Shown here piece by piece: positions 23,557 through 42,890 of a DNA stretch of 64,000 nucleotides (position 1 is the first letter of the stretch; each line of letters opens with the position of its first letter). A program made the position numbers and the translations under genes. The DNA is taken from assembly GCA_964625535.1 (NCBI GenBank), contig CAZVEX010000005.1, positions 3,477 through 67,476 on the forward strand, read 5' to 3'. A model generated the notes under the pieces. That model was not told the origin of the DNA, did no database searches, and saw only the letters and a list, made by a program, of their open reading frames with translations. Source of the DNA: an uncultured Gammaproteobacteria bacterium. Its GTDB lineage: Bacteria; Patescibacteriota; Microgenomatia; Daviesbacterales; UBA10151.

Positions 23557-24657
23557 ATGAAATTCCAAATATTGCAACAAGATTTGCTGCCTGCGCTGCA
23601 GGCTGCTACCCGCAGCGTGGGGGTGAGGGCTACTTTGCCGGTTTTGGAAAATATCCTTTTGTCTGTTGAGGGTGGCAAATTAAAAATTGCCGCAACCAAT
23701 TTGGAAATCGGCATTATGAAATTTGTTCGTGTAAAAGAAGCAGCGGCAGGGGAAGTGACAATTCCTGCCAAGTTATTGCTTGAGGTTGTTTCCGGCTTGG
23801 GGCCAAGCGAGGTGGAGATGGAGTCAAGTAATGAAATTTTAGTAGTAGCAAGCGGCAAGTTCAAAGCCACCTTAAATGGGATCGCCGCCGGGGAGTTCCC
23901 GGCCATACCCTTAACAGACGGCAAAGGCATAACTTTTTCCAAAGAAGTATTGTTGGGCTGCGGACAAATCCTTTTTGCTGCGGCAGTGGACGAGGGCCGG
24001 CCGGTTTTAACAGGAGTTTTGACAGACGTCGGGGAGGAGAAAATAGATTTTGTGGCCACAGATGGTTTCCGGTTAGCTCACAGGCAGGTTGGTTTGCCTA
24101 AAGGAACCAAGCCGTTTAAGAGTCTGATCCCCAAAAGAACATTTGAAGAATTGCTGCGCGTTATTGGCGAGGATGAAGCAGAATCAGTCAACATTTCTCC
24201 CTCGCAGAACCAAAACCAGATAGTTTTTTCCGTTGGTAAAACAGTAGTTTCCTCGAGGTTGATAGAGGGTTCTTTCCCCGCCTGGGAGAAAATTATTCCC
24301 AGCCAAACCGTTGGCCGGGCGCTGGTGGACAAAGACGAGTTCTCAAGGGCGCTGAAGCTGGCGGCGGTGTTTGGCAAAAACGAGGCCAATATTGTGGTTT
24401 TAACCTCCCAGGAGAATAAACTAACTTTGGCCTCGTCGGTCAAGGAAGTGGGCAGTCAGGAAAACGAGGTGGAGGCTCAAGTTGAAGGAGATAGTTTGCA
24501 AGTTGCTTTTAACACCAGGTTTTTACAAGATGTTGTTTCCGCTTCTCCTTCCAGTCAGCTGATGATTGAATTTTCCGGGGCCCTGCAACCGGCTTTAATC
24601 AAACCAGTGGGAGAAGAAGGCTTGGAATACATTGTTATGCCTGTTCGTCTGTCTTAA
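23557..24657 (+). CDS. dnaN: DNA polymerase III beta sliding clamp
   Basis: 366 aa, 'MKFQILQQDLLPALQ...' typical DnaN. Follows dnaA. Confidence 0.9.
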   Translation: MKFQILQQDLLPALQAATRSVGVRATLPVLENILLSVEGGKLKIAATNLEIGIMKFVRVKEAAAGEVTIPAKLLLEVVSGLGPSEVEMESSNEILVVASGKFKATLNGIAAGEFPAIPLTDGKGITFSKEVLLGCGQILFAAAVDEGRPVLTGVLTDVGEEKIDFVATDGFRLAHRQVGLPKGTKPFKSLIPKRTFEELLRVIGEDEAESVNISPSQNQNQIVFSVGKTVVSSRLIEGSFPAWEKIIPSQTVGRALVDKDEFSRALKLAAVFGKNEANIVVLTSQENKLTLASSVKEVGSQENEVEAQVEGDSLQVAFNTRFLQDVVSASPSSQLMIEFSGALQPALIKPVGEEGLEYIVMPVRLS

Positions 24658-25088
24658 AATCCCCGGTATTTGATGGTGCGGAAATGAAAAACTTCTTCTC
24701 TAACAAGTCTTGCCCCGCCTTCAAACTTGCTGTCCGCCATGATAAACAGGGTATAGGTAGTGCCCAGTTCGTAGGGGCTAACAGGTATGATTTTGGCGGT
24801 TTTACGGTCACCCGAAAGCTCCACTCTATAATCTGTTTTTGGTTCTATTCTTATTTTAAATTCAGGTACATTTTCCAGCGGTCTGGAAAATGTCAGCTCA
24901 ATTGTCTCGGTTGAGGAAACAATGGTTTCGTCCAGAGGATCAGGTTTGGTGGAAACTATTCTGGGAATTTCCGGCAAGGAAGAAGGAGCTGGTTTTGTTC
25001 TGTTTGATCCTTGCCTTGATCCCAATAGGACCACAACAATTATAAGTATTATAATCGTTATAAATATTATATTTTTTTTCATTGGCAA
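24654..25088 (-). CDS. Hypothetical membrane-anchored protein (last gene of the T4SS-like operon)
   Basis: 144 aa, N-terminal TM helix, beta-rich C-terminal domain. 10-nt overlap with the upstream hydrolase gene. Confidence 0.4.
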   Translation of the reverse strand: MPMKKNIIFITIIILIIVVVLLGSRQGSNRTKPAPSSLPEIPRIVSTKPDPLDETIVSSTETIELTFSRPLENVPEFKIRIEPKTDYRVELSGDRKTAKIIPVSPYELGTTYTLFIMADSKFEGGARLVREEVFHFRTIKYRGF

Positions 25089-27169
25089 AGGTTAAAATAG
25101 GTATCTGCCGGTTTGAATTCTCCATTTTCTTGGATGGTAATATGGACATGAGCCCCATAAGGGTTACTCTGGTAATATTTGCCGATTAGCTTATTTGATT
25201 GAGCTTGTGAACCCAATATTAAATCTGGCGGGATAGATTCAAGGTGAACAAACCGGATGCGATAATGTTTTCCCTCGGCAATAGTGGTAGCCACAAAATC
25301 TTCTCCACCGCCTTCGGCGTCAGATATTGTCTTGGAAGCTTCAGTCACATTCCAGGTGACCTCTTTCCCGTTGATGACGGGAAGATAGACAGAAGGAAAT
25401 GTGCCGACAATATCCACAGCCTTATCTCTGCCTGTATAGCCGGCTTCCCCCACGGTGCAGCCCTGGCTGCCATATTGTTGCACATAAGAAGGACTGCAAT
25501 GTCCTCCGGTTTCTTTTGATCCGTTGGTTATTCTACCGGCTGCTACAGGGCAGCCAATGATGTTTGTACCGGGGGCGGATGAGGCCTGACAGTTTTGCAG
25601 ATCTTGCCAGGTCTCTTCACAATAACTAAAGTTTCCATAAGCACAACTGTTATAATACCTGTTAATAGCCGTGGTAACTTGATCCTTGGTAGGTTGGGTG
25701 GTGATACCATTAGATTTTAATTTTTCAGCAGCAATCGATAAGCTTTCCGTCAGACTGCATAAATTTTTTCCAGGATTATAGACATCAATTATTTGCATTA
25801 GACCAACAGCTTTGGCAGTTCTGGCACCCTGGGCTATTTCTTCGCCGGTGCATGCTCCATCATGAGAGAACTGGCCGGATTTTTCGCAGAAAGTAGAACC
25901 TTCCTGACAATAGTTATTAGATTTAATGGCATCATGGTTATCATCTGCATTAGCCACCAAATTAGCACTTTCATGCATGGCTACACTGGCCAAAATAGCA
26001 GCCGGCACACCTGATTGGGCAGCAGCATTATTGACCCAACTCATTAGGCTGGAGCTTTTAATCGGTAAAGAATTACCGGATCTGGTAAATTTACAGTTGC
26101 TAAGATCTGCGACGGGTGTGGTAGATCCTCCTCCGGGTGAAGGGGTGGTAGTTTGGCTAGGGGGGGAGGTGATTGCCAAAAAGGCCAAAATCAGTAATAC
26201 CAGCAGGCCAAAAATTAAAAACTTTTTGCCCGGGCCGGGTATGGAAAGGCGCGAAGCTGAATTGGACAATCTGGCCCCGGCATTAATGGCTCCACTGCCC
26301 ACCCCCCCAAAAAACCTAGTCGCTCCGCCGCTTCTGATCCATGAGGGCAGCAGCGCTCCCAAGCCCCCTCCCCCTAATGCTCCCAAGGGCCCAAAACTCG
26401 CTCCGGCAATGCCGCCAATTCCCCCTGATGCCAATGTCCCAATTCTCATGGCAGTTAAATTTCTCTTGATAAAAACACCGGTTCTGGAAGCCAGATTTTT
26501 GCCGAATGATTTGATACCGGTAGGGAAATTAAACCGGGAAGCTCGCGGTATGGCATGTTCTCTGACCCCGCCTTTTTCGGCCACCCATATTTTTGATGGA
26601 GGTTTTTCTACAATTTTTCCGCTGCCGGTTGCCCTGACTAGTTTTGACGCATCCCCGGCTTCTCTGATTGCTCCTGTACTGGTGGCAGTGACCAAGTCTG
26701 ATTTGGCGCGTTCTACAATATGAATAACACGGGGGCGGCGGTAAGAAGAAATGGAAGGACCTGATGGCAAACCTATTCCAGGAAACCCTCCTGCTGCCCC
26801 TGCAGGTTGTTCTGACGGGCCGGCGGGCGGCGGCACTTCCTCTGCACCTGCTGGTTGTTCACCAACTACCTCAACCGGCTTTTCCTCCAATACTTTTGTT
26901 ATTTCGGTTTGTTGTTGAAGAGTTAAGTTTCCCAGCAGGCGTTTTATTTTATTGGGGTCTGACAGATACTTGGTGATGAACTCATCATCTTTTCCCTGAA
27001 GATCAGGGAACTGACGAAGCAAATCAAGACAATGGGTTTTATCAATAGGTATTCGTTCGCCATTCATCACCACAAAGGAAGGAATTTGTTTTAGATTGAA
27101 GCGGTTCTCCTGCAACGCTTTAAAAAATGCTTTAAGCTGTATAAAATCAACAGGCTTTAAATAATCCAT
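25079..27169 (-). CDS. VirB1-like bifunctional peptidoglycan hydrolase (lytic transglycosylase SLT domain + M23/LytM peptidase domain) with Gly/Pro-rich N-terminal region and a TM helix
   Basis: 696 aa. SLT-like 'ILASVAMHESANL' (catalytic Glu-Ser). C-terminal 'YGAHVHI' HxH motif of the M23 family. TM 'FLIFGLLVLLILAFLAI'. Gly-rich low-complexity linker. Confidence 0.65.
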   Translation of the reverse strand: MDYLKPVDFIQLKAFFKALQENRFNLKQIPSFVVMNGERIPIDKTHCLDLLRQFPDLQGKDDEFITKYLSDPNKIKRLLGNLTLQQQTEITKVLEEKPVEVVGEQPAGAEEVPPPAGPSEQPAGAAGGFPGIGLPSGPSISSYRRPRVIHIVERAKSDLVTATSTGAIREAGDASKLVRATGSGKIVEKPPSKIWVAEKGGVREHAIPRASRFNFPTGIKSFGKNLASRTGVFIKRNLTAMRIGTLASGGIGGIAGASFGPLGALGGGGLGALLPSWIRSGGATRFFGGVGSGAINAGARLSNSASRLSIPGPGKKFLIFGLLVLLILAFLAITSPPSQTTTPSPGGGSTTPVADLSNCKFTRSGNSLPIKSSSLMSWVNNAAAQSGVPAAILASVAMHESANLVANADDNHDAIKSNNYCQEGSTFCEKSGQFSHDGACTGEEIAQGARTAKAVGLMQIIDVYNPGKNLCSLTESLSIAAEKLKSNGITTQPTKDQVTTAINRYYNSCAYGNFSYCEETWQDLQNCQASSAPGTNIIGCPVAAGRITNGSKETGGHCSPSYVQQYGSQGCTVGEAGYTGRDKAVDIVGTFPSVYLPVINGKEVTWNVTEASKTISDAEGGGEDFVATTIAEGKHYRIRFVHLESIPPDLILGSQAQSNKLIGKYYQSNPYGAHVHITIQENGEFKPADTYFNLCQ

Positions 27170-27184: not shown

Positions 27185-28963
27185 CTAAACGTTCCCTCTT
27201 GCCAGTATTTCTTGCGGATTAGAGGTAATGAGCTGATGTTCCTCCGGGGAGGCCACCACCCGCATGGCTACATGGGTGTTGCCAGCAAAAAACAAGCCTT
27301 GACCGATCCCTTCAGACAGCAACAATCTTTGTTCCCCCTCGGACAAATTAAAAACTTGGGCCAGAAGGTCAATGGAAACAGGAGCCTGTTTTAAAAGTAC
27401 CTGAATTGACGAGTTGGAAATTATTTCCTTACCCCGATCTCCACCCAGAAAATCTTCCACATCTTGAGTTATGGTGGTTAAACCCAGATAATATTTTCTG
27501 GCCCGCTTGGCCATGTCCACCAGAAAATTGGCAGAGTCTTCATTTCTCATTAAATACCAGGCTTCATCCACGATCATGATTCTTTTCTTGAGCTTGCTCC
27601 TTACCTTAGTCCAGACATAATCCAGGATCATATGCATGGCTAAAGGCCGCAGCTGATCGGCCAGGTCCCTGACGGAAAAGACCGTGAAGGAGTTAGCAAT
27701 GTCAATGTTGGATTGGGCGGAAAAAATGCCGGCTAAAGAGCCTTTAATAAACCTTTCCAGACGGACCGACAGTTCCATGGCCGCAGGTTCTTCCATGCCA
27801 ACCAGCACTTTATACAAATCTTCCATTAAGGGAGGCCCGCCTGTGCCGGGTTGGGTTTTGGGATCATCGGTAATGCCTTTTAAGGCGTAAGTTTGTTTCA
27901 AAGCCCGATCCAGCAGGGCAGCCTCTCCCGCGGAAAGTTGCCCCAAAACCAGTTTTAAAAAGGCAGTCAAAGATAAAATTTTCCTGCCCAGCTGGTTTTC
28001 GCCGGTAGTGTCTTGGGACAAGTCAAAGGGGTTGATTTTAACCGGAGAAGAAGAGGAAAAATTAATGAATTCTCCTCCCACCGCTTCGCAGAGAGGTAAA
28101 TATTCCTGTTCCGGGTCAATCACAATGATTTCCGTGCCAAACATCAAAGATCGCAAAGCTTCTAATTTTACAAAATAACTTTTTCCCGCGCCGGCTTTGG
28201 CAAAAACCACCGAATTGGCATTTTCCAGGGAGAAACGGTCAAACAGAATTAAAGAGTCATTGTGCTCATTGATGCCGTACATCACTCCCTCATTGGCAGT
28301 TAGTTCGGAGGAAGCAAAGGGAAAAGTGGTGGCCAGGGAAGTGGTGTCCATATTGTGAGTAAAATTTAAAAGGTCTGCGCCCTGGGGCAAGGTTGATTTA
28401 AAGCCGTCTTCCATTTGCAAAGTGGTGGGTTGGGTGGTAATGGAGAGCGAAGCCAGAGTGGATTCTATTAGTCTGGAGGTGTTATGCAGTTCGTCAAGAG
28501 AGGAGGCAGGTATTGTCACATACAAGGCAAAATCAAAAAACCTCTCCGCGCCCCTGACCAGCTGATCCTGCAGAGAGCGGGCATCTTCCAAAGCCACCTC
28601 CACTGCCGGGTCAATGGCTTTACCTCGCTCAAGATCGGTTTGAATGGTGGCTTCCATTTCGGCAATTTTTCTTTTCAACTCATCCAGCACTCCGGATGAA
28701 GGCGAGGGATAGATGAACATGGAAATAAGCAGGGAATGGTCAAAAGAAATTAGCGGTTCCAGCCAATTGGATTCCACAAACCTGGGATAATTTGAGACAA
28801 AATATGTGCGAAAATAGCGGTTATTGATTCTTAAATTATTAAAGTCAACCTCTATTTCAGCCGGAGACACCACATCCTCCAGAGTTAACTGGGGAGGAAT
28901 TTTTTCTTCCTGAACTTTTGTATTTTTCAATAAGCTGGGTAACTTCATAATTTTAAATTTCAA
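27185..28963 (-). CDS. virB4: VirB4/TraC-family type IV secretion ATPase, central and C-terminal part
   Basis: 592 aa. Walker A 'AKAGAGKS', Walker B 'IMIVDEAW' (VirB4-type DEAW), middle-region 'RYFRTYFVSNYPRFV' motif. Track start is TTG; ATG at 28948 is plausible. Confidence 0.8.
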   Translation of the reverse strand: MKFKIMKLPSLLKNTKVQEEKIPPQLTLEDVVSPAEIEVDFNNLRINNRYFRTYFVSNYPRFVESNWLEPLISFDHSLLISMFIYPSPSSGVLDELKRKIAEMEATIQTDLERGKAIDPAVEVALEDARSLQDQLVRGAERFFDFALYVTIPASSLDELHNTSRLIESTLASLSITTQPTTLQMEDGFKSTLPQGADLLNFTHNMDTTSLATTFPFASSELTANEGVMYGINEHNDSLILFDRFSLENANSVVFAKAGAGKSYFVKLEALRSLMFGTEIIVIDPEQEYLPLCEAVGGEFINFSSSSPVKINPFDLSQDTTGENQLGRKILSLTAFLKLVLGQLSAGEAALLDRALKQTYALKGITDDPKTQPGTGGPPLMEDLYKVLVGMEEPAAMELSVRLERFIKGSLAGIFSAQSNIDIANSFTVFSVRDLADQLRPLAMHMILDYVWTKVRSKLKKRIMIVDEAWYLMRNEDSANFLVDMAKRARKYYLGLTTITQDVEDFLGGDRGKEIISNSSIQVLLKQAPVSIDLLAQVFNLSEGEQRLLLSEGIGQGLFFAGNTHVAMRVVASPEEHQLITSNPQEILARGNV

Positions 28964-29688
28964 ATTGCATCCTCCAGTTCCTCCACCACAAAAGGGTGGG
29001 TTTTGACAATCTGGCTACTTAACGGAGGAGGATTATTAATGGCAGGTTTTTCTTGGACAGCAGGCGGCGGGGTAGGAGTGGACACAATCGGTTTAGGAGC
29101 ATTGAGTTTGACCGGTTGCGGCAGCGGAGTAAATTCTTCTCCACTACCGTTGTAAGCATTGTAAAAAAGCTCCAGTAGTTCCTTGCTTTGAAGCTGGGTG
29201 GCTTTTAGGCCAACACGGTTTAACTGTCTGATAACCTGATCGCGCCTTGGCAGAAGCACTGTTTTGACTTTTTGGTATAAGGCTTCTCTGGTAGGGATAA
29301 TCCCCAGCTCCAGCTTGGACAGAGGAATGACCACGTAGAATTTCTTATCCAACACCTCGTTTTCCTTAATGGTGGTTTGGATAAACTGGCGGTACGATGT
29401 CATCATAGCCGAAAGCAGTGGGTTGGTCTGGGCTTTTTGGGCATGATCCAGCAGGTTCAGATATGAGCTGATATTTAGTCTTTCCGACTGGATCACAATC
29501 TGAATGGCAAAGGACAGCGAATTTAACATTTGGGCAAAGCTGGCAATAATCCCTATTTGTTCTCTTTCCGATAACAGGCCAAAATTAACTGCGGAAACCT
29601 GCATTACCAGGGCGCCGCCGCCGTCTTTTAAAAGCAGTATATTGTCTTTAATATCGCTAATTAACAAATGTTCCTGGGTTGTGCTCAT
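28960..29688 (-). CDS. VirB4 N-terminal domain encoded as a separate ORF (split VirB4)
   Basis: 242 aa. 'LLLKDGGGALVMQVSAVNFGLLSEREQIGIIASFAQMLNSL..IQIVIQS' matches the VirB4 N-terminal consensus. 242 + 592 aa equals a full-length VirB4. The stop and downstream start are in different frames. Confidence 0.55.
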   Translation of the reverse strand: MSTTQEHLLISDIKDNILLLKDGGGALVMQVSAVNFGLLSEREQIGIIASFAQMLNSLSFAIQIVIQSERLNISSYLNLLDHAQKAQTNPLLSAMMTSYRQFIQTTIKENEVLDKKFYVVIPLSKLELGIIPTREALYQKVKTVLLPRRDQVIRQLNRVGLKATQLQSKELLELFYNAYNGSGEEFTPLPQPVKLNAPKPIVSTPTPPPAVQEKPAINNPPPLSSQIVKTHPFVVEELEDAI

Positions 29689-36677: not shown

Positions 36678-38522
36678 TTATCCTCCCTGTTTATACGGCT
36701 TAATTTTTCCGCTGCTAGCATCCGAATAAATTTTGAATTTCTCTCTTATACTAGGTTGGTATTGAAGTGGGTTATATGTCCAGCCTGTTGGTTGGCCTGT
36801 TTTCGGATCAAACCCCGTTGGCATGTATGCAGGTGTTCCAAATAACCCTCTGGCTCTGGCAAGATTGCCGCTGGCAGCGCCAACTCCCTGCTGGGCCTGT
36901 TGGCCGTATCCTCTGCCGGCGGCAATCCCCCCTGAAATTTCCTGGCCGATCAGTTGTCCAGCTACTCCCACTCTGCCAATAGTTCTGGCAAGAATATCTG
37001 GAATAGCTGGGGTGGCAACTAATGCTCCAAAAGCCAGGAGCAGCTTGATGAAATCCAATCCCATTCCGCCAAAAAGAGGAAAGGTAAAAGTTCCTGTAAT
37101 CTCGACAGGGCCTTGAGCCCCCACTGTAGAAACTAAACCATTACTGACCGTAGCTCCACCTGAATCAGATACTTTAAATGGACCATACGGACCATTTGCA
37201 GAACCCAGCATAAAAGCCACAAAATAAAATACAGCTATCACAGCGGGGAATGCCAAAATATTAGCCAGCATATTTAATATCCAGCTGGTGGCAATCCCCT
37301 GTCTGCCTGGAAGGGCTGCTGCCAAAAATTGAAACGGGGCAGTGATTGTTAAAAATATGATGGTTAAATAAACGTTGATCAAGCGCATTAACAGTTTAAA
37401 CATGGCGTATAACAATATGGCTGTAACAACCAAAGCAAAAAGCGCACCTACTATTGCTGTGGGTCCTATAGGTCCTGTAGCTGTATTAAGAACGGCTAAG
37501 CCTTGTAGGGCTGCAATTATACCTTCACCAAATTTAGGTATAAGTTTGAGCCACTCAAAAGCCTGACCGGTTATTTGTGCACTAACTAAGGCTGCCAGTG
37601 TTACCAAAAGGCGCTGTGCATCATTATGAATATCATCCCAGAAAGAATTTAATACCTCAGTTACCTTTTCTTTATTAGCTACTGTGGCAAATTTACTAAA
37701 GATACTGATAAGATTTGGTTTGCGACCGGTGTTAGGATCCGGGGAATCTAAATCCTGAACTAAGTTTTGAGGGGTACCTCTGACAGTAGAAAAATAAGCC
37801 CCAACTATATTAGTACCAATAAAGGCTGTATCAGAAATTAAAGAGGCCAAGAAATAGGAAAAAGTGATTAAGATCAGGCCAATTACCAGGCCGGGTAAAG
37901 CGGCCTGGGCAGTAATGACTGTTTGGGGGTTGATTCTGTTTCTAAACATTACCATGAGTCCTATCACCACAAAAATAATGATCATAAATACATAAGAGAT
38001 ATTTCTGGATACCTGCCACAAAGTTAAAATCGGGTTTAACACCTGGGCTCCTGACCCGATCACCTGAGCTTTAGCCTCTTTGATAATTCCCAACCCCTGT
38101 CCCACCGATGCCAAATAATCAACCGTCCTAACAGGCGGGTTGGCATATAAAACGCCGATCAAAGAAGTGGTGGCTCCCAGTGCCCCTCCTCCCAGATTAA
38201 CCCGGGATAAAACCGGCACCGACTGTATGGCCCCTTGGGCATCTTTGGTAACCTGATAACTTAAACAGGGCTGGCCAATCACCGATGAACCAACAGACAG
38301 ACAGGAGAATGTATGGAATAAATTATGGACCAAAAGATCGGTGTAAATGGGGGAAGTAGGAGAAACGGTAGTTGGTAGGTTGTAGGTGGAGGCTTGCCCT
38401 GACGAAGGAAGGGTTTGGGCAAAAGCGGTAGGTACAAGCAGTAAGAATAAGGCAGTAAGAATAAAGCTTAAAAAAATCTTAATTCTGAATTCTAAATTCT
38501 GAATTCTAAAGTCTAAAGTCAT
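36678..38522 (-). CDS. VirB6/TrbL-like polytopic membrane protein with N-terminal signal peptide, periplasmic domain and Gly/Gln-rich C-terminal tail
   Basis: 614 aa, signal peptide, ~170-aa exported domain, at least 6 TM helices, C-terminal 'GQEISGGIAAGRGYGQQAQQGVGAASGN' tail as in TrbL. Follows the pilin array. Confidence 0.6.
   Translation of the reverse strand: MTLDFRIQNLEFRIKIFLSFILTALFLLLVPTAFAQTLPSSGQASTYNLPTTVSPTSPIYTDLLVHNLFHTFSCLSVGSSVIGQPCLSYQVTKDAQGAIQSVPVLSRVNLGGGALGATTSLIGVLYANPPVRTVDYLASVGQGLGIIKEAKAQVIGSGAQVLNPILTLWQVSRNISYVFMIIIFVVIGLMVMFRNRINPQTVITAQAALPGLVIGLILITFSYFLASLISDTAFIGTNIVGAYFSTVRGTPQNLVQDLDSPDPNTGRKPNLISIFSKFATVANKEKVTEVLNSFWDDIHNDAQRLLVTLAALVSAQITGQAFEWLKLIPKFGEGIIAALQGLAVLNTATGPIGPTAIVGALFALVVTAILLYAMFKLLMRLINVYLTIIFLTITAPFQFLAAALPGRQGIATSWILNMLANILAFPAVIAVFYFVAFMLGSANGPYGPFKVSDSGGATVSNGLVSTVGAQGPVEITGTFTFPLFGGMGLDFIKLLLAFGALVATPAIPDILARTIGRVGVAGQLIGQEISGGIAAGRGYGQQAQQGVGAASGNLARARGLFGTPAYMPTGFDPKTGQPTGWTYNPLQYQPSIREKFKIYSDASSGKIKPYKQGG
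38480..38520. repeat. Tandem heptamer repeat (GAATTCT/AAATTCT/AAAGTCT x~6) at the 5' end of the VirB6-like gene
   Basis: 'taattctgaattctaaattctgaattctaaagtctaaagtc' encodes N-terminal 'MTLDFRIQNLEFRI'. Same AGAATTC family as tsaD 7855-7877. Confidence 0.8.
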
Positions 38523-38571: not shown

Positions 38572-38898
38572 TTATGGGTTGGGTTGGCACCATGGCAAGC
38601 CCGCTCCTCCGCAAAGCGCTCTGATATCAAAAAATGTTACTTTTACTCCGGTCACCGCTTCAATAAGCTGCAGAATTATCCAGGCTATGGCCAAAAAAAG
38701 TATCCCCAATAAAGCCCAGGTGACAGTTAAATGGGCAGCTTGTATAGCCTTGGGTTCTCCGCCTGAAGTTAAATATTTGATTCCGGCCCAGGTAAGCACG
38801 ACCAAAGAGGCAATAAAGCCCAATCCTACTATGACGGAAATGCCTTTGGAAAAAACCTCTTCAATTTGTTGCAAACCGGCAGGTGAAGGATTGAGCAT
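38572..38898 (-). CDS. TrbC/VirB2-family pilin-like protein (paralog 1)
   Basis: 108 aa, two hydrophobic helices around 'WAGIKYLTSGGEPKAIQAAH' (family motif W..Y..GGxxE/K...A). Confidence 0.55.
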   Translation of the reverse strand: MLNPSPAGLQQIEEVFSKGISVIVGLGFIASLVVLTWAGIKYLTSGGEPKAIQAAHLTVTWALLGILFLAIAWIILQLIEAVTGVKVTFFDIRALCGGAGLPWCQPNP

Positions 38899-38934
38899 AT
38901 ATTAAGGTTAGCACTAATAGGGTATAAAGATCAA

Positions 38935-39261
38935 TTATGAGGGGCTGGGGTTGGGGGTGGGGATAACAATGTTGGTTATGTTCAATCCTGTGAATTGTCC
39001 GGCCACTCTGGCCAGGGCAAAAGCCACAGCCAAAACAGCCAAGCCAATCAAGGCATTGATAATTCTATTTCTGGCCTTGCTGACGGCCTCTTTGTCTCCG
39101 CCGGAAGTAATCCATTCAAACGCTCCCCAGATTAGCATTACCAGAACTACCAGCAGTCCCAGACTAAAAGCCAGCAATAGAAAATTGCTGATAAACTCGC
39201 CCAAACTGGCATAACCTTTACCTTGGGGAGGGGTAATAGTAATGGTAGGAGCCGGACTCAT
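38935..39261 (-). CDS. TrbC/VirB2-family pilin-like protein (paralog 2)
   Basis: 108 aa, 'LIWGAFEWITSGGDKEAVSKARNRIINALIGLAVL'. Compare RP4 TrbC '[28 protein letters not shown]'. Confidence 0.6.
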   Translation of the reverse strand: MSPAPTITITPPQGKGYASLGEFISNFLLLAFSLGLLVVLVMLIWGAFEWITSGGDKEAVSKARNRIINALIGLAVLAVAFALARVAGQFTGLNITNIVIPTPNPSPS

Positions 39262-39300
39262 AATCTAATCTTATTCACAAAACTATTTACTTGTCAAGCA

Positions 39301-39837
39301 TCACTTTTGACCTTCAAAAAACTTAAAGCCGGTAAATTGTCCCAAAACCTGGATAACTGCAAAGGTAATAGCCAAAAGCAAAATTCCCACCACAGCATTA
39401 ATGATTTTTTTTCTGGCCGAATCCAGTTTTTCCTTGTCCCCCTCCGAGGTCATCCAGTCCCATCCTCCCCAAAGCAGCATGAAAATTAACACTACCCCGG
39501 CAGCTGCATAAATTAAACCTACCAGATTGGACAAAAACCTGCTGATCCCCCCGGCTCCTGTGGGATCAGGGGAGGTAAAGGGTAACAGTTCCGGAGGAGG
39601 ATTGATAGTGCCGAAGGACTTACCAACTTCTGATTTTTCACAAGTACCTCGACTAGGATCAGCCGTGAGGGGTTTACAAACCAACCCTGCTTCACAATGC
39701 CCATTGGGATCTTTTATAAAACAGAAACCCGGTTCTTTTATATGATGAGCCAATACTACGTTAGCGTTGATCCCGAAAAACAGACAAATAAAGATCAAAA
39801 GAAAAAGTTTTTTAATCATACAAGAATATATTATCAT
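39301..39837 (-). CDS. Pilin-like protein with N-terminal signal peptide and Cys-rich extracellular extension fused to TrbC/VirB2 core (paralog 3)
   Basis: 178 aa, signal peptide, six Cys in 'CFIKDPNGHCEAGLVCKPLTADPSRGTCEK', then 'LWGGWDWMTSEGDKEKLDSARKKIINAVVGILLL' pilin core. Confidence 0.6.
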   Translation of the reverse strand: MIIYSCMIKKLFLLIFICLFFGINANVVLAHHIKEPGFCFIKDPNGHCEAGLVCKPLTADPSRGTCEKSEVGKSFGTINPPPELLPFTSPDPTGAGGISRFLSNLVGLIYAAAGVVLIFMLLWGGWDWMTSEGDKEKLDSARKKIINAVVGILLLAITFAVIQVLGQFTGFKFFEGQK

Positions 39838-39907
39838 TAATTTACAAAGCGCAACAACTAGTTAATGTAATTCTATTATAGGTTTGATAAATAGATAAGA
39901 TTATGGT

Positions 39908-40615
39908 ATGATAGATAAAATTATGAAAAGAGAAAGCGAGCTTAAATCAAGGGCAATACGTATTGGAGGTACTGTTTTAGTAACTACAGTTATGGGTTTA
40001 GCATTAGAGCAAGGTGTAAAAACGGTTAATGCGGAAACTCCTACGGCTACAGCCACTCCCACCAGAACGCCTACTCCTACAGGTACGCCTACCCCGGATA
40101 TAGAAATAGTTAATAAACAAGCGACTATTACAGCTTTAAACAAACAGCTTGAAAGGGCAAGACAACTAGCAGATCTGCGGGCAACCGAAGCTGCTGTTCG
40201 CAGGGAAATAGATAAAGTTATGGGTACGCCTCCGGCTACTTCTACCCCTACTGCTCAAGAGCTAGAAAGACAGAGGATTGAGCAAGCTGCTATAAAAGAG
40301 ATTGCAGATAGGTGGGGGACTGCCACAGCCCAGGCAGAATTAAGACCAGCTACACCTACTCCCTTTCCTCTTCCCCCAAGACCGGCCGGGCCCAAACCCA
40401 AGGAAGAACATGATCCGACAGGCGGTTTGGATATAGGCGGGTTAGTCCCTTGGGTGGGAGGAGTAGCCGCGCTTGTTACAGCCGTGGTAGGTTGGTTAAA
40501 CAGGGGCAGAATTCTGGGTTTATTTAGAAGAGGCGGTGGAGACGCTGATGTAGATGTAACTCCTGATGATGATCCTTTGAGACCAGTCCCTCCTAGACCG
40601 CCAACAACTACCTGA
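39908..40615 (+). CDS. Thr/Pro-rich hypothetical protein with N- and C-terminal TM helices (only plus-strand ORF inside the pilin array)
   Basis: 235-aa ORF, 'TPTATATPTRTPTPTGTPTP' repeats, central coiled coil. The mirror minus ORF 39901-40143 is low-complexity. Coding status uncertain. Confidence 0.3.
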   Translation: MIDKIMKRESELKSRAIRIGGTVLVTTVMGLALEQGVKTVNAETPTATATPTRTPTPTGTPTPDIEIVNKQATITALNKQLERARQLADLRATEAAVRREIDKVMGTPPATSTPTAQELERQRIEQAAIKEIADRWGTATAQAELRPATPTPFPLPPRPAGPKPKEEHDPTGGLDIGGLVPWVGGVAALVTAVVGWLNRGRILGLFRRGGGDADVDVTPDDDPLRPVPPRPPTTT

Positions 40616-40985
40616 TGATTTGGAATCCGGTTATCCCAAAAAGACTGGATAGTAAGAATTGTAACACCAAAAAGGCAGACATTAAAATAAAAAAGCCGAT
40701 AATGGCATGAGTTATCATTTGCCTGGCTCCCTCCATTTCTTCTTTATTGCCTCCTGCCCGCAAATACCGGAAAGCCCCAAAAAGAAAATACATGATGACC
40801 ATTACTGCTGTTATCGAAAAGGCCGGAGTGACCAGCTTTGATGTGGCCTCGCCCAAAGAAGTAATATTGCCAAAGCCGAATTTTTCACCAATGGGAATGG
40901 GAGATTGGGCAAGAACGGGAATAACCATTAACAGGTAACTGGTGACGAGAATATAAATTTTTAATTTTAAATTTTTAATTTTCAT
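40608..40985 (-). CDS. TrbC/VirB2-family pilin-like protein with signal peptide (paralog 4)
   Basis: 125 aa, 'FGAFRYLRAGGNKEEMEGARQMITHAIIGFFIL'. The 5' end 'MKIKNLKLKI' is encoded by an AAAATT(A/G)AAAATTT repeat. Confidence 0.6.
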   Translation of the reverse strand: MKIKNLKLKIYILVTSYLLMVIPVLAQSPIPIGEKFGFGNITSLGEATSKLVTPAFSITAVMVIMYFLFGAFRYLRAGGNKEEMEGARQMITHAIIGFFILMSAFLVLQFLLSSLFGITGFQIIR

Positions 40986-41033
40986 TCAAATTTTAATATT
41001 TCAATTTTAAATGTTTAAATAACAATAAGTAAA
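40960..41033. repeat. AT-rich degenerate tandem repeats (aatttt/ttcaaatttt units) flanking the Avd-like gene, downstream side
   Basis: 'ttttaattttaaatttttaattttcattcaaattttaatatttcaattttaaatgtttaaat'. Confidence 0.7.
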
Positions 41034-41393
41034 TTACTTAGTACTAAATGCTATTTTAGAAAAAATCAAGGTCAATTCTTGTGCTTCTTGCCATAATTTT
41101 CTGCACGCCTCTCTCGTCTCATTAATTGCTTTTGCAAGCAATCTTAGCCAATATTTTGTTTCTTTTGCTTCTTTTTTGCAAATAAAAATTTTGTTTTTGA
41201 AATCTTTTTTACTGCTTGCTCCGTTTGCTTCACAATAGTTAGCGCCTATGCTTGTTCCGGCTCTTAGGAGTTGATCTACTATAGGTATAGTAACTACATT
41301 TTTAGGAACATTTTTACAAAGTTCAATTATACTCTCTGCAAATGTTGCAGTTCTTTCTTCCAGATCATATTTTTTGTTTAATATTTTCATCAT
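41034..41393 (-). CDS. Four-helix-bundle protein of the 23S rRNA intervening-sequence / DGR Avd-like family
   Basis: 119 aa. 'DLEERTATFAESIIELCKNVPK...QLLRAGTSIGANYCEANGASSKKDFKNKIFICKKEAKETKYWLRLL' matches the IVS-protein/Avd family consensus. Inserted between pilin paralogs. Confidence 0.75.
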   Translation of the reverse strand: MMKILNKKYDLEERTATFAESIIELCKNVPKNVVTIPIVDQLLRAGTSIGANYCEANGASSKKDFKNKIFICKKEAKETKYWLRLLAKAINETREACRKLWQEAQELTLIFSKIAFSTK

Positions 41394-41440
41394 TTAAATT
41401 TGATTTCAAATTTCGAATTGTAAATTTCAAATTTCTAGAA
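41394..41440. repeat. AT-rich repeats (tttcaaattt units) flanking the Avd-like gene, upstream side
   Basis: 'ttaaatttgatttcaaatttcgaattgtaaatttcaaatttctag'. Confidence 0.7.
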
Positions 41441-41758
41441 TGGTACTCCTCCTCTGCCTGGAGTAAAGATTTCCCCGGCATATTTGGCCACAAAATAGGC
41501 TATCAAGGTGACCAACAGCCCAATCAAGGCCCATCTGATTCTGGCCCTGGCCTTGGCCAAACCTTCTTTATTCCCTCCGGCCATAATATACTGCCAGGCT
41601 CCCCATACCAGCCAGTAAAAGGCCATAAAAACCACCAGATAAAAGGCAATGTTTAAAATAGCTGATAATAAAGAACCCAGATCGGTGAACTTTTCTCCCA
41701 CAGGAGAAGGTTGAGGAATGTTTCCAAAACCAGGTAGTTGAATAGCTAATTTCATAGT
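41435..41758 (-). CDS. TrbC/VirB2-family pilin-like protein (paralog 5)
   Basis: 'LVWGAWQYIMAGGNKEGLAKARARIRWALIGLLVTL'. Start moved to the internal Met 'MKLAIQLPG' to remove the 65-nt overlap of the track ORF (41435-41833). Confidence 0.55.
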   Translation of the reverse strand, partial: TMKLAIQLPGFGNIPQPSPVGEKFTDLGSLLSAILNIAFYLVVFMAFYWLVWGAWQYIMAGGNKEGLAKARARIRWALIGLLVTLIAYFVAKYAGEIFTPGRGGVPF

Positions 41759-41768
41759 GACTCTAGTT

Positions 41769-42890
41769 TCATCGTCCGAATCCCGGTATTCCCAAAATAT
41801 CAAAGCCAATGATTTGCAAAAGCAGTACTGCAAATATTACAAACAACAGTCCAATTATGGCGGAAGTTAATCTCTCTCTTCCTGCCTGCAGGGTTTCCGG
41901 ATTGCCTGCAGAGGTGAGCATCTGAAATGCTCCGAGTAGCATCATCAAAAAGGCCAAACCTCCCCCTATCCCCAGAGCAAACTTCAATACATCCGCAATC
42001 AAATCCGCAGGCTCCGTATGAATACACCCAATAGCAGTTTTAATGGAAGGCTTAGATGGATCACAACTCAAACTTACTGCAGAAGTGCAAATTACACCTT
42101 GATCGCCGCATTTTTTTGGTTGTGTAATAATACCAGGATCTATAGAGCCTGACGGGATAGGTAATGGCGAAGGAGCGTTGACATCTAATGTTATCAAACC
42201 GCCACAAGAGTTATATTTACTACTCGTATCTGTACTAGCTACTTTGATTTCTTTTATTTCTCCAGGATTTCCATCTATCGGAATATCAACGAATTCGCCG
42301 AGTCCATGTTCATCGGTAGTTATTTTTTTTTCAACCAGATTCTTTCCTCCTACTAAAATAAGATAGGTTTGATTTTCTGATCCTAAAAATCTGATAGGTA
42401 TTAAAGCATTAGGTTGAACTTTTGTGGGGAGAGAAGGGTTTATAAGACACTGGCCTCCCAGAATTCCAACTTGGAATTTGATATCTGTGCAATATGGACT
42501 AAAATCTTTATCGCTACTGGTTTTACTTATTTCAATCTTTCCATTTTTTTCTCCTCTCTCAAACAATACCCCATTTTCGGACGTTTTAGGTATCTTAATT
42601 TGAAAGCTAGTTTGGTCAGAGTTAATTTGAATATATTCTGATCCCCAATCCACACCAAACATATCCGTTCTATACCTAATGTAGGGTCCATTGCCCTGAA
42701 TATATTGAGCCCCTCCGGAAGTTAAGTCGAATGTCAAGAGCATAGGGTCTGAATTTACAAAAAAAGGTTTAGATGTAAGAGTAATTCCTGTATTAAGGTT
42801 AGAACAGGGTTTAACATCAACGGCATAAACGAAAGGCGGTAAAAATAATAAATGTAAAAGTAACAATATAGCTAGGATTATTTTGAACAT
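41769..42890 (-). CDS. Secreted protein with ~290-aa extracellular N-terminal domain fused to a C-terminal TrbC/VirB2 pilin core (paralog 6; first gene of the array)
   Basis: 373 aa, signal peptide 'MFKIILAILLLLHLLFLPPFVYA', C-terminal 'LLGAFQMLTSAGNPETLQAGRERLTSAIIGLLFVIFAVLLL'. Confidence 0.55.
   Translation of the reverse strand: MFKIILAILLLLHLLFLPPFVYAVDVKPCSNLNTGITLTSKPFFVNSDPMLLTFDLTSGGAQYIQGNGPYIRYRTDMFGVDWGSEYIQINSDQTSFQIKIPKTSENGVLFERGEKNGKIEISKTSSDKDFSPYCTDIKFQVGILGGQCLINPSLPTKVQPNALIPIRFLGSENQTYLILVGGKNLVEKKITTDEHGLGEFVDIPIDGNPGEIKEIKVASTDTSSKYNSCGGLITLDVNAPSPLPIPSGSIDPGIITQPKKCGDQGVICTSAVSLSCDPSKPSIKTAIGCIHTEPADLIADVLKFALGIGGGLAFLMMLLGAFQMLTSAGNPETLQAGRERLTSAIIGLLFVIFAVLLLQIIGFDILGIPGFGR

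What the first reader, a model, noticed from the sequence alone, without database searches (positions are those of the whole stretch)
24654..42890. Minimal T4SS / conjugative-pilus-like locus directly abutting oriC (dnaA-dnaN)
Within 18 kb, starting immediately after dnaN, are a VirB1-like SLT+M23 hydrolase, a split VirB4 ATPase (DEAW Walker B), a VirB3-like protein, a VirB6/TrbL-like protein and seven TrbC/VirB2-family pilin paralogs. No VirD4 coupling protein, VirB11, relaxase, VirB8/9/10 homolog or integrase is visible. That argues against a classical conjugative element and for a chromosomal, reduced surface-filament/secretion apparatus. Competence genes (comFC, dprA, comM) lie 5-9 kb away, so a DNA-uptake or host-attachment role is plausible but inferred.
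Basis: partly seen in the sequence, partly recalled or inferred. Interest (0 to 1): 0.85.

Follow-up and report, generated by a model that had tools for sequence, protein, structure and literature searches.

The report
Known Patescibacteria T4SS beside oriC
This is a real but already-published kind of chromosomal type IV secretion/pilus machine that ultrasmall Patescibacteria (here a Candidatus Daviesbacteria) keep next to their replication origin and probably use to interact with a host bacterium, not to conjugate.

Summary
Window 24654-42890 lies convergent with dnaN, about 1.6 kb from a DnaA-box cluster. It encodes:
- an Ig-like anchored protein;
- a bitopic VirB1-like hydrolase (SLT and M23 folds confirmed by structure);
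- a VirB4 ATPase split into a TrsD/TraC-like N-terminal piece and a 592-aa ATPase;
- a PrgI/VirB3-like protein;
- a polytopic VirB6-like protein (moderate structural support);
- six PF18895 VirB2-like pilins, not seven.

No relaxase, T4CP, VirB8/9/10/11 or integrase occurs anywhere in the 64 kb.

The window comes from a Candidatus Daviesbacteria MAG (GCA_016192235.1). The system is not new. Wang et al. 2023 (Cell) showed that the same gene order beside dnaA-dnaN is essential for epibiotic growth of a Saccharibacterium. Quinonero-Coronel et al. 2025 described the Patescibacteria T4SS clade: derived from MPF_FATA, with TrsD, pilin arrays, no relaxase, and dnaA/dnaN proximity in Microgenomatia. 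In 50 of 53 related loci dnaN lies within 6 kb of virB4.

The competence genes nearby are part of the conserved chromosomal backbone, and the published ΔcomEC result argues against an essential DNA-uptake role.

One thing seems undescribed in the papers I read. Two soluble proteins (465 and 1400 aa) are encoded antisense between prgI and virB6. Their position is conserved, but their sequences diverge far faster than those of their neighbours.

The parts
21586..22920 (+). dnaA (context: replication origin)
   Evidence: The translation is a clear DnaA. Precomputed Pfam hits are Bac_DnaA and DnaA_N.
22922..23027 (+). DnaA-box cluster (oriC-like): two perfect TTATCCACA boxes and two with one mismatch. 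A further pair lies at 21585-21603.
   Evidence: Cumulative GC skew has its minimum at about 21-23 kb.
23557..24657 (+). dnaN. It is convergent with the first T4SS-locus gene and overlaps it by 4 nt.
   Evidence: dnaN lies within 6 kb downstream of virB4 in 50 of 53 related loci.
24654..25088 (-). 144-aa protein anchored by an N-terminal TM helix, with an Ig-like (Big_5) ectodomain. It occupies the same position as the PEGA/Ig-like exported protein SEML1_0005 of Southlakia.
   Evidence: Pfam Big_5, 1.4e-7. TM helix at residues 6-24. Conserved next to dnaN in Daviesbacteria loci at 41-54% identity. Southlakia table.
25079..27169 (-). VirB1-like bitopic peptidoglycan hydrolase. It has a cytoplasmic N-terminal region of about 315 aa, one TM helix (317-335), then an SLT/lysozyme-like domain followed by an M23/LytM domain outside the cell.
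27185..28963 (-). VirB4-family ATPase (the C-terminal three quarters of a canonical VirB4), with intact Walker A and Walker B motifs.
   Evidence: NCBIfam conju_CD1110, 387 bits against a 325 cut-off. Pfam P-loop_TraG, 1.5e-26. PDB 4AG5, 2.7e-47. 57-89% identical in 80 Microgenomates loci.
28960..29688 (-). TrsD/TraC-like protein, the detached N-terminal segment of VirB4. Its stop codon overlaps the VirB4 start codon.
   Evidence: NCBIfam TrsD 1e-7; VirB4_plasma profile positions 131-281; conju_CD1110 positions 24-170. Precomputed Pfam PF26593 TraC-like. Fused to VirB4 in L050 and L021. Present in 74 of 80 loci.
29685..30695 (-). PrgI/VirB3-like membrane protein (two TM helices), followed by a Pro-rich and coiled region and a C-terminal CarboxypepD_reg-like beta-sandwich.
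   Evidence: Pfam PrgI 1.3e-6, CarboxypepD_reg 2.7e-4. TM helices. Present in 73 of 80 loci.
30994..32391 (+). 465-aa soluble protein of unknown function with a C-terminal Gly-rich linker and a CxxC...CxxC zinc ribbon. It is encoded antisense to the T4SS operons and evolves fast.
   Evidence: No Pfam or NCBIfam hit. No TM helix. Counterparts of 448-484 aa sit in the same slot; those that can be aligned are about 30% identical, or conserve only the zinc ribbon.
32461..36663 (+). Soluble protein of unknown function, 1400 aa here (NCBI annotates 1385 aa). It is convergent with the virB6-like gene. Its position is conserved but its sequence is hypervariable.
   Evidence: No family hit. Only 5 homologues by word-indexed search. 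57 clusters among 1.84 billion representatives, with no Pfam hit in the five members tested. Same convergent position in all 7 further contexts examined and in most of the 24 loci that hold both flanking genes. Divergence is far above that of its neighbours.
36678..38522 (-). Polytopic VirB6-like membrane protein. The true start may lie downstream of the heptamer repeat at 38473-38517.
   Evidence: Seven hydrophobic segments. AF2 model pLDDT 71; top four Foldseek PDB hits are TrwI/VirB6 of R388 (prob 0.82-0.93, E 0.08-0.15). One of 16 relatives hits Pfam TrbL at 0.0015. Same position as the VirB6-like SEML1_0013.
38572..38898 (-). VirB2-like pilin paralogue 1 (108 aa).
   Evidence: PF18895, 6.8e-7. 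NF045849, 1.2e-5.
38935..39261 (-). VirB2-like pilin paralogue 2 (108 aa).
   Evidence: PF18895, 1.1e-10. NF045849, 2.4e-6.
39301..39837 (-). VirB2-like pilin paralogue 3 (178 aa), with a signal peptide and a Cys-rich N-terminal extension.
   Evidence: PF18895, 1.5e-7. Alignment A5.
39908..40615 (+). 235-aa Pro/Thr-rich ORF inside the pilin array. It has no relatives in the loci searched and may not be a real gene.
   Evidence: No family hit. No homologue in the 80 loci.
40608..40985 (-). VirB2-like pilin paralogue 4 (125 aa).
   Evidence: PF18895, 1.8e-10.
41034..41393 (-). Four-helix-bundle protein (23S rRNA IVP / bAvd-like) embedded in the pilin array and flanked by a 46-nt AT-rich imperfect inverted repeat.
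   Evidence: PF05635, 1.1e-18. TIGR02436, 6e-24. Inverted repeat 40952-40997 / 41392-41437. Copies of the same family recur at this locus in L003, L037, L082, L086 and L089.
41435..41755 (-). VirB2-like pilin paralogue 5. The likely start is the ATG at 41755; the longest ORF extends to 41833.
   Evidence: PF18895, 25.9 bits, just under the 26.6 cut-off. NF045849, 5.6e-6. Alignment A5.
41769..42890 (-). 373-aa pilin paralogue 6: a signal peptide, a variable ectodomain of about 270 aa, and a C-terminal VirB2-like hairpin. Candidate adhesin or tip pilin.
   Evidence: PF18895, 9.2e-11, at residues 295-361. Only the C-terminal 27-28% is conserved in L088 and L089. Long first pilins of 368-389 aa hold the same position in relatives.

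Best explanation
This locus is the Candidatus Daviesbacteria (class Microgenomatia) copy of the chromosomal, vertically inherited Patescibacteria type IV secretion system, a lineage derived from the monoderm MPF_FATA conjugation machinery.

Working model. The parts are shown by homology; how they act together is inferred from the named families.
1. The bitopic SLT+M23 hydrolase opens the cell wall locally, as VirB1, PrgK and TraG do.
2. The two-TM PrgI/VirB3-like protein, the TrsD piece and the VirB4 ATPase form the energising complex at the cytoplasmic membrane.
3. The polytopic VirB6-like protein forms the membrane platform or channel.
4. Six divergent VirB2-like pilins are inserted in the membrane. 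VirB4 extracts and polymerises them into an extracellular filament. The long first pilin (373 aa) and the Ig-like anchored protein probably serve as surface or adhesive modules.

There is no relaxase and no nearby coupling protein. The machine is therefore most likely used for contact with, and exchange of proteins or small molecules with, a host bacterium, not for conjugation. The orthologous Saccharibacteria locus is essential for epibiotic growth.

The position beside dnaA-dnaN is an ancestral, conserved feature of the class. It is not the scar of an insertion.
For: - **Component identities:**
- **Taxonomy and source:**. The proteins are 100% identical to HYZ06_00980-01010 of GCA_016192235.1.
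- **Vertical, conserved synteny:** prgI-trsD-virB4 is present in 73-74 of 80 Microgenomates loci. dnaN lies within 6 kb in 50 of 53 loci with enough flank. The wider neighbourhood is collinear in two other Daviesbacteria genomes.
- **No mobile-element genes** in any ORF scanned across the window, and no tRNA bordering the locus.
- **Published equivalents:** Southlakia epibionticum has dnaA-dnaN-recF, then an Ig-like protein, hydrolases, VirB4, a TrsD-like protein, PrgI, a large protein, a VirB6-like protein and six pilins. All but one gene are essential (PMC10633639 text and Tables S1/S2). The phylum-wide survey reports the same clade, TrsD, pilin arrays of 2-11 genes averaging 25% identity, absence of relaxase, and dnaA/dnaN proximity in Microgenomatia (PMC12102498). 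The pilins here are 24-30% identical to the first paralogue.
Against: - No experiment exists for any Microgenomatia member. Function is extrapolated from one Saccharibacterium.
- The VirB6 assignment rests on weak structural matches (E about 0.1) and on position.
- No filament has been seen for this kind of T4SS.
- A T4CP or relaxase elsewhere in the genome cannot be excluded from a 64-kb window. The survey does find VirD4-like genes far from virB4 in many Patescibacteria.
- The transported substrate is unknown.
Confidence: 0.88

Rival explanations
1. DNA-uptake (competence) T4SS, like Helicobacter ComB or the archaeal Ced system. It would import host DNA or nucleotides together with the nearby comFC, dprA and comM.
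For: - There is no relaxase or T4CP.
- comFC, dprA and comM lie 5-9 kb away.
- VirB4 has weak partial hits to CedB and CedD (3e-13 and 2e-5, P-loop region only).
- Patescibacteria cannot make nucleotides (PMC10633639).
- The survey notes comF, recG and radA near the T4SS in class ABY1.
Against: - comFC is separated from the locus by SpoIID, a bPH protein, a 597-aa protein, smpB and two tRNA-Ser genes. The same backbone order holds in other Daviesbacteria. Proximity is therefore shared synteny, not an operon.
- In Southlakia, a comEC deletion abolishes transformation without affecting viability, while the T4SS is essential (PMC12857230).
- The CedB and CedD scores are far below their cut-offs.
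Confidence: 0.1
2. Decayed integrative conjugative element that inserted next to oriC and lost its relaxase, T4CP and integrase.
For: - The VirB4, TrsD and PrgI genes are of the conjugative MPF_FATA type.
- A toxin-antitoxin pair and a type I RM system occur elsewhere in the window.
- TA and AbiEii genes occupy the variable slot inside the locus in relatives.
Against: - The locus and its flanks are collinear across the class: 50 of 53 loci have dnaN within 6 kb.
- VirB4 identity is highest in other Daviesbacteria assemblies and lower in other Microgenomates groups.
- There is no integrase, no flanking direct repeats and no adjacent tRNA.
- G+C is 0.42-0.48 against 0.41-0.46 in the immediate flanks, so there is no clear island signature.
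- The published VirB4 tree shows one ancient monophyletic Patescibacteria clade with rare transfer between classes.
Confidence: 0.03
3. Adhesion-only filament: the VirB4-powered pilus attaches the cell to its host, and no substrate passes through it.
For: - Six pilins, including one with a large variable ectodomain, and an Ig-like surface protein.
- No coupling protein.
- Pilin diversification, as in the Bartonella and Anaplasma VirB2 paralogues discussed in the survey.
Against: - Patescibacteria already use type IV pili for host adhesion (PMC10633639).
- The VirB6-like channel protein is retained.
- The fast-evolving soluble proteins encoded inside the locus are easier to explain as cargo or as cytoplasmic partners.
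Confidence: 0.15

Closest known systems
T4SS of Candidatus Southlakia epibionticum ML1 (SEML1_0004-0019; Wang et al. 2023, Cell, PMC10633639)
   Same: - It starts right after dnaA-dnaN.
- The gene order is the same: Ig-like exported protein, peptidoglycan hydrolase(s), VirB4, TrsD-like protein, PrgI, large protein(s), VirB6-like protein, six PF18895 pilins.
- There is no relaxase or coupling protein in the locus.
   Different: - The class is different (Saccharimonadia, not Microgenomatia).
- The Southlakia hydrolases are lysozyme plus cysteine peptidase and a DD-peptidase protein, not SLT plus M23.
- Its VirB6-like protein is 1088 aa, against 614 aa here.
- Its middle genes (0011 and 0012, the latter NTF2-like) are on the same strand as the core genes. 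Here two soluble proteins are encoded antisense.
- Essentiality has been shown only there.
Patescibacteria VirB4 clade / T4SS survey (Quinonero-Coronel et al. 2025, Microb Genom, PMC12102498)
   Same: - MPF_FATA-related VirB4, with TrsD next to it.
- PrgI-type VirB3.
- VirB2 arrays of 2-11 genes at about 25% identity, especially in Microgenomatia.
- No relaxase.
- dnaA, dnaN and rnpA nearby in Microgenomatia and Paceibacteria.
   Different: - The survey found VirB6 scarce in Microgenomatia, and only 22.6% of that class's VirB3 homologues near virB4. Here the PrgI-like gene is adjacent in 73 of 80 loci.
- Here a conserved VirB6-like family is recognisable only by fold and position.
- The antisense pair of soluble proteins is not mentioned in the survey sections I read.
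Gram-positive conjugative T4SS of MPF_FATA type (pCF10 Prg/Pcf, pGO1 Trs, C. difficile CTn2 CD1110 family, Mycoplasma ICE)
   Same: - VirB4 exceeds the CD1110-family cut-off.
- TrsD, as in pGO1.
- PrgI.
- No VirB7, VirB9 or VirB10.
- All six pilins have the Mycoplasma ICE 'Mbov_0395 pilin-like' model as their best NCBIfam match.
   Different: - No relaxase, no T4CP (PcfC/VirD4), no VirB8-like PrgL, and no PrgB-type adhesin.
- It is chromosomal and vertically inherited rather than mobile.
- It carries a six-gene pilin array.
- The pilin matches to the Mycoplasma model fall below its cut-off (16-27 bits against 40).
R388/Agrobacterium MPF_T T4SS (VirB1-B11)
   Same: VirB1, VirB2, VirB3, VirB4 and VirB6 equivalents are present. 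The VirB6-like model's best PDB matches are TrwI/VirB6 of R388.
   Different: There is no VirB5, B7, B8, B9, B10, B11 or D4, and no outer-membrane core complex, as expected for a monoderm.

Membership tests
Type IV secretion system (any class) | VirB4-family ATPase with intact Walker motifs | tested here: met
   NCBIfam conju_CD1110, 387 bits against a 325 cut-off. PDB 4AG5, 2.7e-47. GAGKS and VDEAW are present in the sequence.
Patescibacteria T4SS clade (MPF_FATA-derived) | VirB4 groups with the Patescibacteria VirB4 proteins, nested in MPF_FATA | tested here: inconclusive
   I built no tree. The best curated family is the MPF_FATA CD1110 type. 594 tblastn-confirmed relatives were found; the 80 kept are 57-89% identical. 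Those with informative titles are Patescibacteria (mostly Microgenomates-group) assemblies; about 30 bin titles read Gammaproteobacteria or Pseudomonadales, but these bins carry the same locus. This is consistent with membership, but the phylogenetic placement comes from the paper.
Patescibacteria T4SS clade (MPF_FATA-derived) | TrsD-like gene next to virB4 | tested here: met
   NCBIfam TrsD, 1e-7, covering profile positions 14-200 of 201. Precomputed Pfam PF26593 TraC-like. Adjacent in 74 of 80 loci.
Patescibacteria T4SS clade (MPF_FATA-derived) | PrgI/VirB3-like membrane protein | tested here: met
   Pfam PrgI, 29.3 bits against a 27 cut-off; two TM helices.
Patescibacteria T4SS clade (MPF_FATA-derived) | Array of divergent PF18895 VirB2-like pilins | tested here: met
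   Five paralogues above the gathering score and one at 25.9 against 26.6 bits. 24-30% identity to the first paralogue.
Patescibacteria T4SS clade (MPF_FATA-derived) | VirB6-like polytopic protein | tested here: inconclusive
   No Pfam, NCBIfam or PDB sequence hit. The top four Foldseek hits are TrwI/VirB6, but at E 0.08-0.15 and TM-scores 0.18-0.35. One of 16 relatives hits TrbL at 0.0015. The position matches the Southlakia VirB6-like gene.
Patescibacteria T4SS clade (MPF_FATA-derived) | No relaxase associated with the locus; chromosomal location, often near dnaA/dnaN | tested here: met
   No relaxase, T4CP or integrase in any ORF scanned across the 64 kb. dnaN is adjacent, and within 6 kb of virB4 in 50 of 53 relatives.
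Conjugative element (ICE / conjugative T4SS) | Relaxase (MOB) and type IV coupling protein | tested here: not met
   None in the window. The rest of the genome was not available.
Conjugative element (ICE / conjugative T4SS) | Integrase and att repeats, variable presence among relatives | tested here: not met
   No integrase and no flanking direct repeats. The locus is present and collinear across the class.
VirB1-like T4SS cell-wall hydrolase | Lytic transglycosylase fold, here combined with a second peptidase domain as in PrgK/TraG | tested here: met
VirB8-like (NTF2 fold) component | Bitopic protein with a periplasmic NTF2-like domain | tested here: not met
No other small bitopic ORF lies in the locus. 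The folds of the 465-aa, 1400-aa and 235-aa proteins were not predicted.
Diversity-generating retroelement (considered because of the bAvd-like gene) | Reverse transcriptase plus TR/VR repeat pair | tested here: not met
   No reverse transcriptase in any ORF scanned, and no repeat pair of 30 nt or more near the pilins.

The most novel reading that the evidence does not exclude
The two soluble proteins encoded antisense between prgI and virB6 are a 465-aa zinc-ribbon protein and a 1400-aa protein from a family of only about 57 clusters among 1.84 billion representatives. They may form a conserved, Microgenomatia-specific module of this T4SS, either as its translocated cargo (effectors) or as a lineage-specific replacement for the missing coupling protein. 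Their extreme divergence would then reflect an arms race with the host bacterium. In the same genome pair, the 1400-aa protein's counterpart is 25% identical over 45% of its length, against 82% for VirB4. If this is right, these would be the first candidate substrates of the essential Patescibacteria T4SS.
Probability: 0.2. Interest if true: 0.65.

Novelty: already known. Interest (0 to 1): 0.27.

Why it matters
The Patescibacteria T4SS is the first T4SS shown to be essential to the bacterium that carries it. It is also the only monoderm T4SS with a pilin array, and its substrate and mechanism are open questions. This locus adds nothing categorically new, but it is a clean Microgenomatia example in a class with no cultivated member.

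Two refinements may be useful:
- A conserved VirB6-like family is recognisable by fold and position in a class where HMM surveys found VirB6 scarce.
- A gene pair encoding soluble proteins is embedded in the locus. Its position is conserved and its sequence is hypervariable. It is a concrete candidate for cargo or a specificity factor.

All six pilins consistently, though weakly, match the Mycoplasma ICE pilin-like family. This suggests the pilins may be native to the MPF_FATA lineage rather than borrowed from diderm systems.

Tried and rejected
1. **DGR hypothesis.** The bAvd/23S-IVP-like gene in the pilin array prompted it. I rejected it because there is no reverse transcriptase and no TR/VR repeat pair.
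2. **ICE hypothesis.** Rejected on synteny and the lack of mobility genes.
3. **Local hhalign of the TrsD family against the VirB4 N-terminal region.** It gave only E 0.022 over 43 columns, which is not decisive. The question was settled by NCBIfam profile tiling and by the fused relatives.
4. **TrsD profile against PDB sequences.** It returned only DciF prenyltransferase at E 0.004, which I treated as spurious.
5. **VirB6-family profile against PDB sequences.** No hits.
6. **Hydrolase by sequence.** No significant Pfam or PDB sequence hit, so a structure model was needed.
7. **Iterative HMM search among the large slot proteins.** The high scores for L004 and L005 arose by construction, because those proteins were in the seed. 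Direct BLAST shows only marginal similarity. hhalign between lineage groups found nothing (one search timed out).
8. **First representative-library job.** It failed because the profile exceeded 1200 positions. I re-ran it with a single 1200-aa fragment.
9. **u1400-family profile against PDB.** It gave only Cry6Aa at E 0.026. I keep this as a lead, not a finding.
10. **The look-up of encoding contigs with the TTG start of VirB4.** It failed. The annotated start is the ATG five codons downstream.
11. **A seventh pilin.** None found among ORFs of 40 aa or more in 38.5-43 kb.

Full report
**What is there.** The window is chromosomal DNA of a Candidatus Daviesbacteria MAG (class Microgenomatia, Patescibacteria/CPR). 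Three of its proteins (the 696-aa, 614-aa and 1400-aa ORFs) are 100% identical to HYZ06_01010, HYZ06_00980 and HYZ06_00985 on a 339,045-bp contig. An exact look-up of the VirB4 protein identifies that contig as JACPUM010000003.1 of GCA_016192235.1.

- The left part carries rpmH-rnpA-yidD-yidC-jag on the minus strand, then dnaA, a 150-aa resolvase-like gene and dnaN on the plus strand.
- DnaA boxes cluster on both sides of dnaA (21585-21603 and 22922-23027).
- Cumulative GC skew has its minimum at about 21-23 kb.
- The locus therefore does abut the replication origin.

**Component by component (minus strand unless stated).**

- **24654-25088:** a 144-aa protein with an N-terminal TM helix and a Big_5 Ig-like domain.
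- **25079-27169:** a 696-aa bitopic protein.
  - Sequence searches gave nothing significant.
  - Homologues keep the central domain but swap the C-terminal one for M23, CHAP or Amidase_2.
- **27185-28963:** VirB4. NCBIfam conju_CD1110 scores 387 bits against a 325 cut-off, covering profile positions 183-733 of 752. The 4AG5 VirB4 C-terminal domain matches at 2.7e-47. Walker A and B are intact.
- **28960-29688:** a TrsD/TraC-like protein.
  - It matches NCBIfam TrsD at 1e-7 and covers positions 24-170 of the same CD1110 profile. A precomputed Pfam hit calls it TraC-like.
- The two ORFs therefore tile one canonical VirB4. They are fused into a single ORF of 814-834 aa in 2 of 74 relatives.
- **29685-30695:** PrgI/VirB3-like with two TM helices and a C-terminal beta-sandwich.
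- **36678-38522:** a 614-aa polytopic protein.
  - It has no sequence-family hit.
  - Its AF2 model (pLDDT 70.7) has R388 TrwI/VirB6 as its four best PDB matches (prob 0.82-0.93, E 0.08-0.15).
  - One of 16 relatives touches Pfam TrbL at 0.0015.
  - I call it VirB6-like with moderate confidence.
- **Six pilin genes** follow: 38572-38898, 38935-39261, 39301-39837, 40608-40985, 41435-41755 and 41769-42890.
  - All carry the PF18895 hairpin with the conserved (S/A)GG(N/D)xE...AR loop.
  - They are 24-30% identical to the first paralogue.
  - I found no seventh.
  - The last is 373 aa, with a variable ectodomain of about 270 aa in front of the pilin hairpin.

No VirB5, B7, B8, B9, B10 or B11, and no T4CP, relaxase, integrase or reverse transcriptase, occurs in any of the 55 ORFs scanned across the 64 kb.

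**Conservation.**

- A scan of one genome per species found 594 relatives of the VirB4. The best 80 are 57-89% identical; those with informative titles are Patescibacteria, mostly Microgenomates-group, assemblies.
- prgI-trsD-virB4 is intact in 73-74 of the 80.
- dnaN lies within 6 kb downstream of virB4 (median 2.6 kb) in 50 of the 53 loci with at least 8 kb of flank.
- In two other Daviesbacteria genomes the whole stretch is collinear with the window: comFC, smpB, a ~600-aa protein, DUF5657, a bPH-like gene, SpoIID, the pilin array (long pilin first), VirB6-like, a large antisense protein, PrgI, TraC-like and VirB4.
- This is vertical inheritance of a chromosomal system, not an island.

**Comparison with the literature.** This is a described system.

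- **Wang et al. 2023 (PMC10633639).**
  - In Candidatus Southlakia epibionticum an 'apparent T4SS (SEML1_0006-0019)' is essential for epibiotic growth and most resembles Gram-positive conjugative systems. It has an essential series of pilins and lacks recognisable coupling and relaxase proteins.
  - Their tables give the order dnaA, dnaN, recF, then 0004 (prealbumin-like), 0005 (PEGA/Ig exported) and 0006 (two lysozyme-like domains plus a cysteine peptidase).
  - Next come 0007 (1113 aa, DD-peptidase C-terminus), 0008 (VirB4), 0009, 0010 (PrgI) and 0011 (998 aa).
  - The locus ends with 0012 (NTF2-like, non-essential), 0013 (VirB6-like) and 0014-0019 (six PF18895 pilins).
  - That is the architecture found here.
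- **Quinonero-Coronel et al. 2025 (PMC12102498).** Their survey of 3,035 genomes reports the following:
  - a monophyletic Patescibacteria VirB4 clade nested in MPF_FATA;
  - TrsD as the commonest partner;
  - PrgI-type VirB3;
  - VirB2 arrays of 2-11 genes at about 25% identity, especially in Microgenomatia and Saccharimonadia;
  - almost no relaxases;
  - T4CP genes mostly far from virB4;
  - dnaA, dnaN and rnpA enriched near virB4 in Microgenomatia and Paceibacteria.

  Their genome table includes Daviesbacteria assemblies classed as Microgenomatia.
- **A December 2025 review (PMC12857230)** presents these systems as the 'newcomers' of the superfamily. It speculates that the T4SS and pilus form a conduit for signals or for uptake from the host.

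**Mechanism.**

- *Shown here by homology or fold:* the parts list above.
- *Inferred from the named families:*
  - The hydrolase opens the wall.
  - PrgI, TrsD and VirB4 form the membrane ATPase complex.
  - The VirB6-like protein is the platform on which VirB2-like pilins are polymerised.
  - The long pilin and the Ig-like protein are surface modules.
- *Inferred from the Southlakia genetics:* the role is in host interaction, not conjugation.

The competence idea is weak for two reasons. comFC, dprA and comM belong to the conserved backbone and are separated from the locus by unrelated genes. In Southlakia, loss of comEC abolishes transformation but not viability, whereas the T4SS is essential.

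**What may be new.** Between prgI and the VirB6-like gene, on the opposite strand, lie a 465-aa and a 1400-aa ORF with no TM segment and no family match.

- In most of the 24 Microgenomates loci that hold both flanking genes, a TM-less ORF of 574-1337 aa ends within tens of bases of the VirB6-like stop codon and is convergent with it.
- The 1400-aa protein has only 5 homologues by word-indexed search of 5.8 billion proteins. It has 57 clusters among 1.84 billion representatives, all 0.8-2.1 kaa apart from two short entries (528 and 133 aa). None of the five tested has a Pfam domain.
- In all seven further contexts examined, a large gene holds the same convergent position next to a 535-703-aa gene. 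Pilins or PrgI/TraC-like genes are also present wherever the contig reaches far enough.
- Its divergence is extreme.
  - In L001 it is 40% identical where VirB4, TrsD and PrgI are 89, 79 and 77%.
  - In L088 it is 25% identical over 45% of its length where VirB4, VirB6-like and smpB are 82, 64 and 77%.
  - In L089, with VirB4 at 82%, no similarity is detected.
- The 465-aa protein has counterparts of 448-484 aa in the same slot. They share about 30% identity, or only the C-terminal Gly-rich linker and CxxC...CxxC ribbon.
- In relatives the slot also accumulates TA and AbiEii genes. It could therefore simply be a variable hotspot. I put about 0.2 on the reading that these proteins are T4SS cargo or a specificity module.

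**Smaller refinements.**

- The survey reported VirB6 as scarce in Microgenomatia, and only 22.6% of that class's VirB3 homologues near virB4. Here PrgI-like genes are adjacent in 73 of 80 loci, and a conserved VirB6-like family is present but visible only by fold and position.
- All six pilins have the Mycoplasma ICE 'Mbov_0395 pilin-like' model as their only or best NCBIfam match (E 2e-6 to 9e-3, below its cut-off). The TrsD piece's best NCBIfam hit is the Mycoplasma ICE VirB4 model. This hints that pilin-like proteins exist within MPF_FATA itself.

**Verdict.** Interest is low to moderate. The residual value lies in the antisense hypervariable gene pair.

Noticed in passing
window 30994-36663 (+); also L004, L005, L007, L082-L089: A gene pair encoding soluble proteins (a protein of about 465 aa with a C-terminal zinc ribbon, and one of 1200-2100 aa) is encoded antisense between prgI and the virB6-like gene. 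Its position is conserved across Microgenomates, but it diverges much faster than any neighbour and has no known domain.
   Followed up: partly
window 41034-41393 (-), with repeat arms 40952-40997 / 41392-41437; L003, L037, L082, L086, L089: A four-helix-bundle gene (23S rRNA IVP / bAvd-like) sits inside the pilin array, flanked by a 46-nt AT-rich imperfect inverted repeat. Copies of the same family recur at this T4SS locus in several relatives; in L089 two copies flank the long pilin gene. There is no reverse transcriptase or TR/VR pair, so this is not a DGR. Its function is unknown.
   Followed up: partly
window 7853-7884, 7995-8051, 22983-23014, 38473-38517, 40952-41026, 41392-41437: AT-rich heptamer-like simple repeats (AATTCTG, AAATTGA, AAGTTTT, AAATTTG) lie immediately upstream of, and run into, the 5' ends of several genes. 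These include the virB6-like gene, pilin 4 and the IVP gene. They may be promoter or leader elements, and they may make the annotated start of the VirB6-like ORF too long.
   Followed up: no
window 23103-23555 (+): A 150-aa gene with an N-terminal TM helix and an archaeal Holliday-junction-resolvase-like nuclease domain (PF10107) lies between dnaA and dnaN. It is 71-78% identical in other Daviesbacteria, which is more conserved than dnaA or dnaN themselves.
   Followed up: partly
window 24654-42890 relative to oriC at about 21.5-23 kb: All core T4SS genes are on the minus strand just to the right of the origin, so they are transcribed head-on to replication. The same convergent orientation with dnaN holds in 43 of the 58 relatives with dnaN downstream of virB4, and in Southlakia.
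   Followed up: partly
L050:1877-4381 and L021:390-2834: In two Microgenomates relatives the TrsD-like and VirB4 ORFs are fused into one ORF of 814-834 aa. The fusion could be ancestral, a secondary event, or an assembly frameshift.
   Followed up: partly
window 38572-42890 (the six pilins): All six pilins give the Mycoplasma ICE 'Mbov_0395 pilin-like conjugal transfer protein' model (NF045849) as their only or best NCBIfam hit, below its cut-off. This suggests that VirB2-like proteins exist inside the monoderm MPF_FATA lineage.
   Followed up: partly
window 2-5747 (-): A KAP-family P-loop NTPase lies next to a type I restriction-modification methylase (HsdM) and restriction subunit (HsdR). 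No HsdS was identified among the ORFs scanned.
   Followed up: no
window 57510-58063 (+): A Phd/YefM antitoxin and a YafQ/RelE-like toxin form a pair.
   Followed up: no
window 42968-47284 (+): A SpoIID-domain protein with an N-terminal coiled coil, a bPH_2 membrane protein and a 597-aa single-TM protein of unknown function lie directly beside the pilin array. The same order holds in other Daviesbacteria (L088, L089). They might belong to the envelope machinery.
   Followed up: partly
u1400 family profile (alignment A7), profile positions 186-347: There is a weak match (E 0.026-0.036) to the alpha-pore-forming toxin Cry6Aa in a PDB sequence search. It is not significant and is recorded only as a lead for structure prediction.
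   Followed up: no
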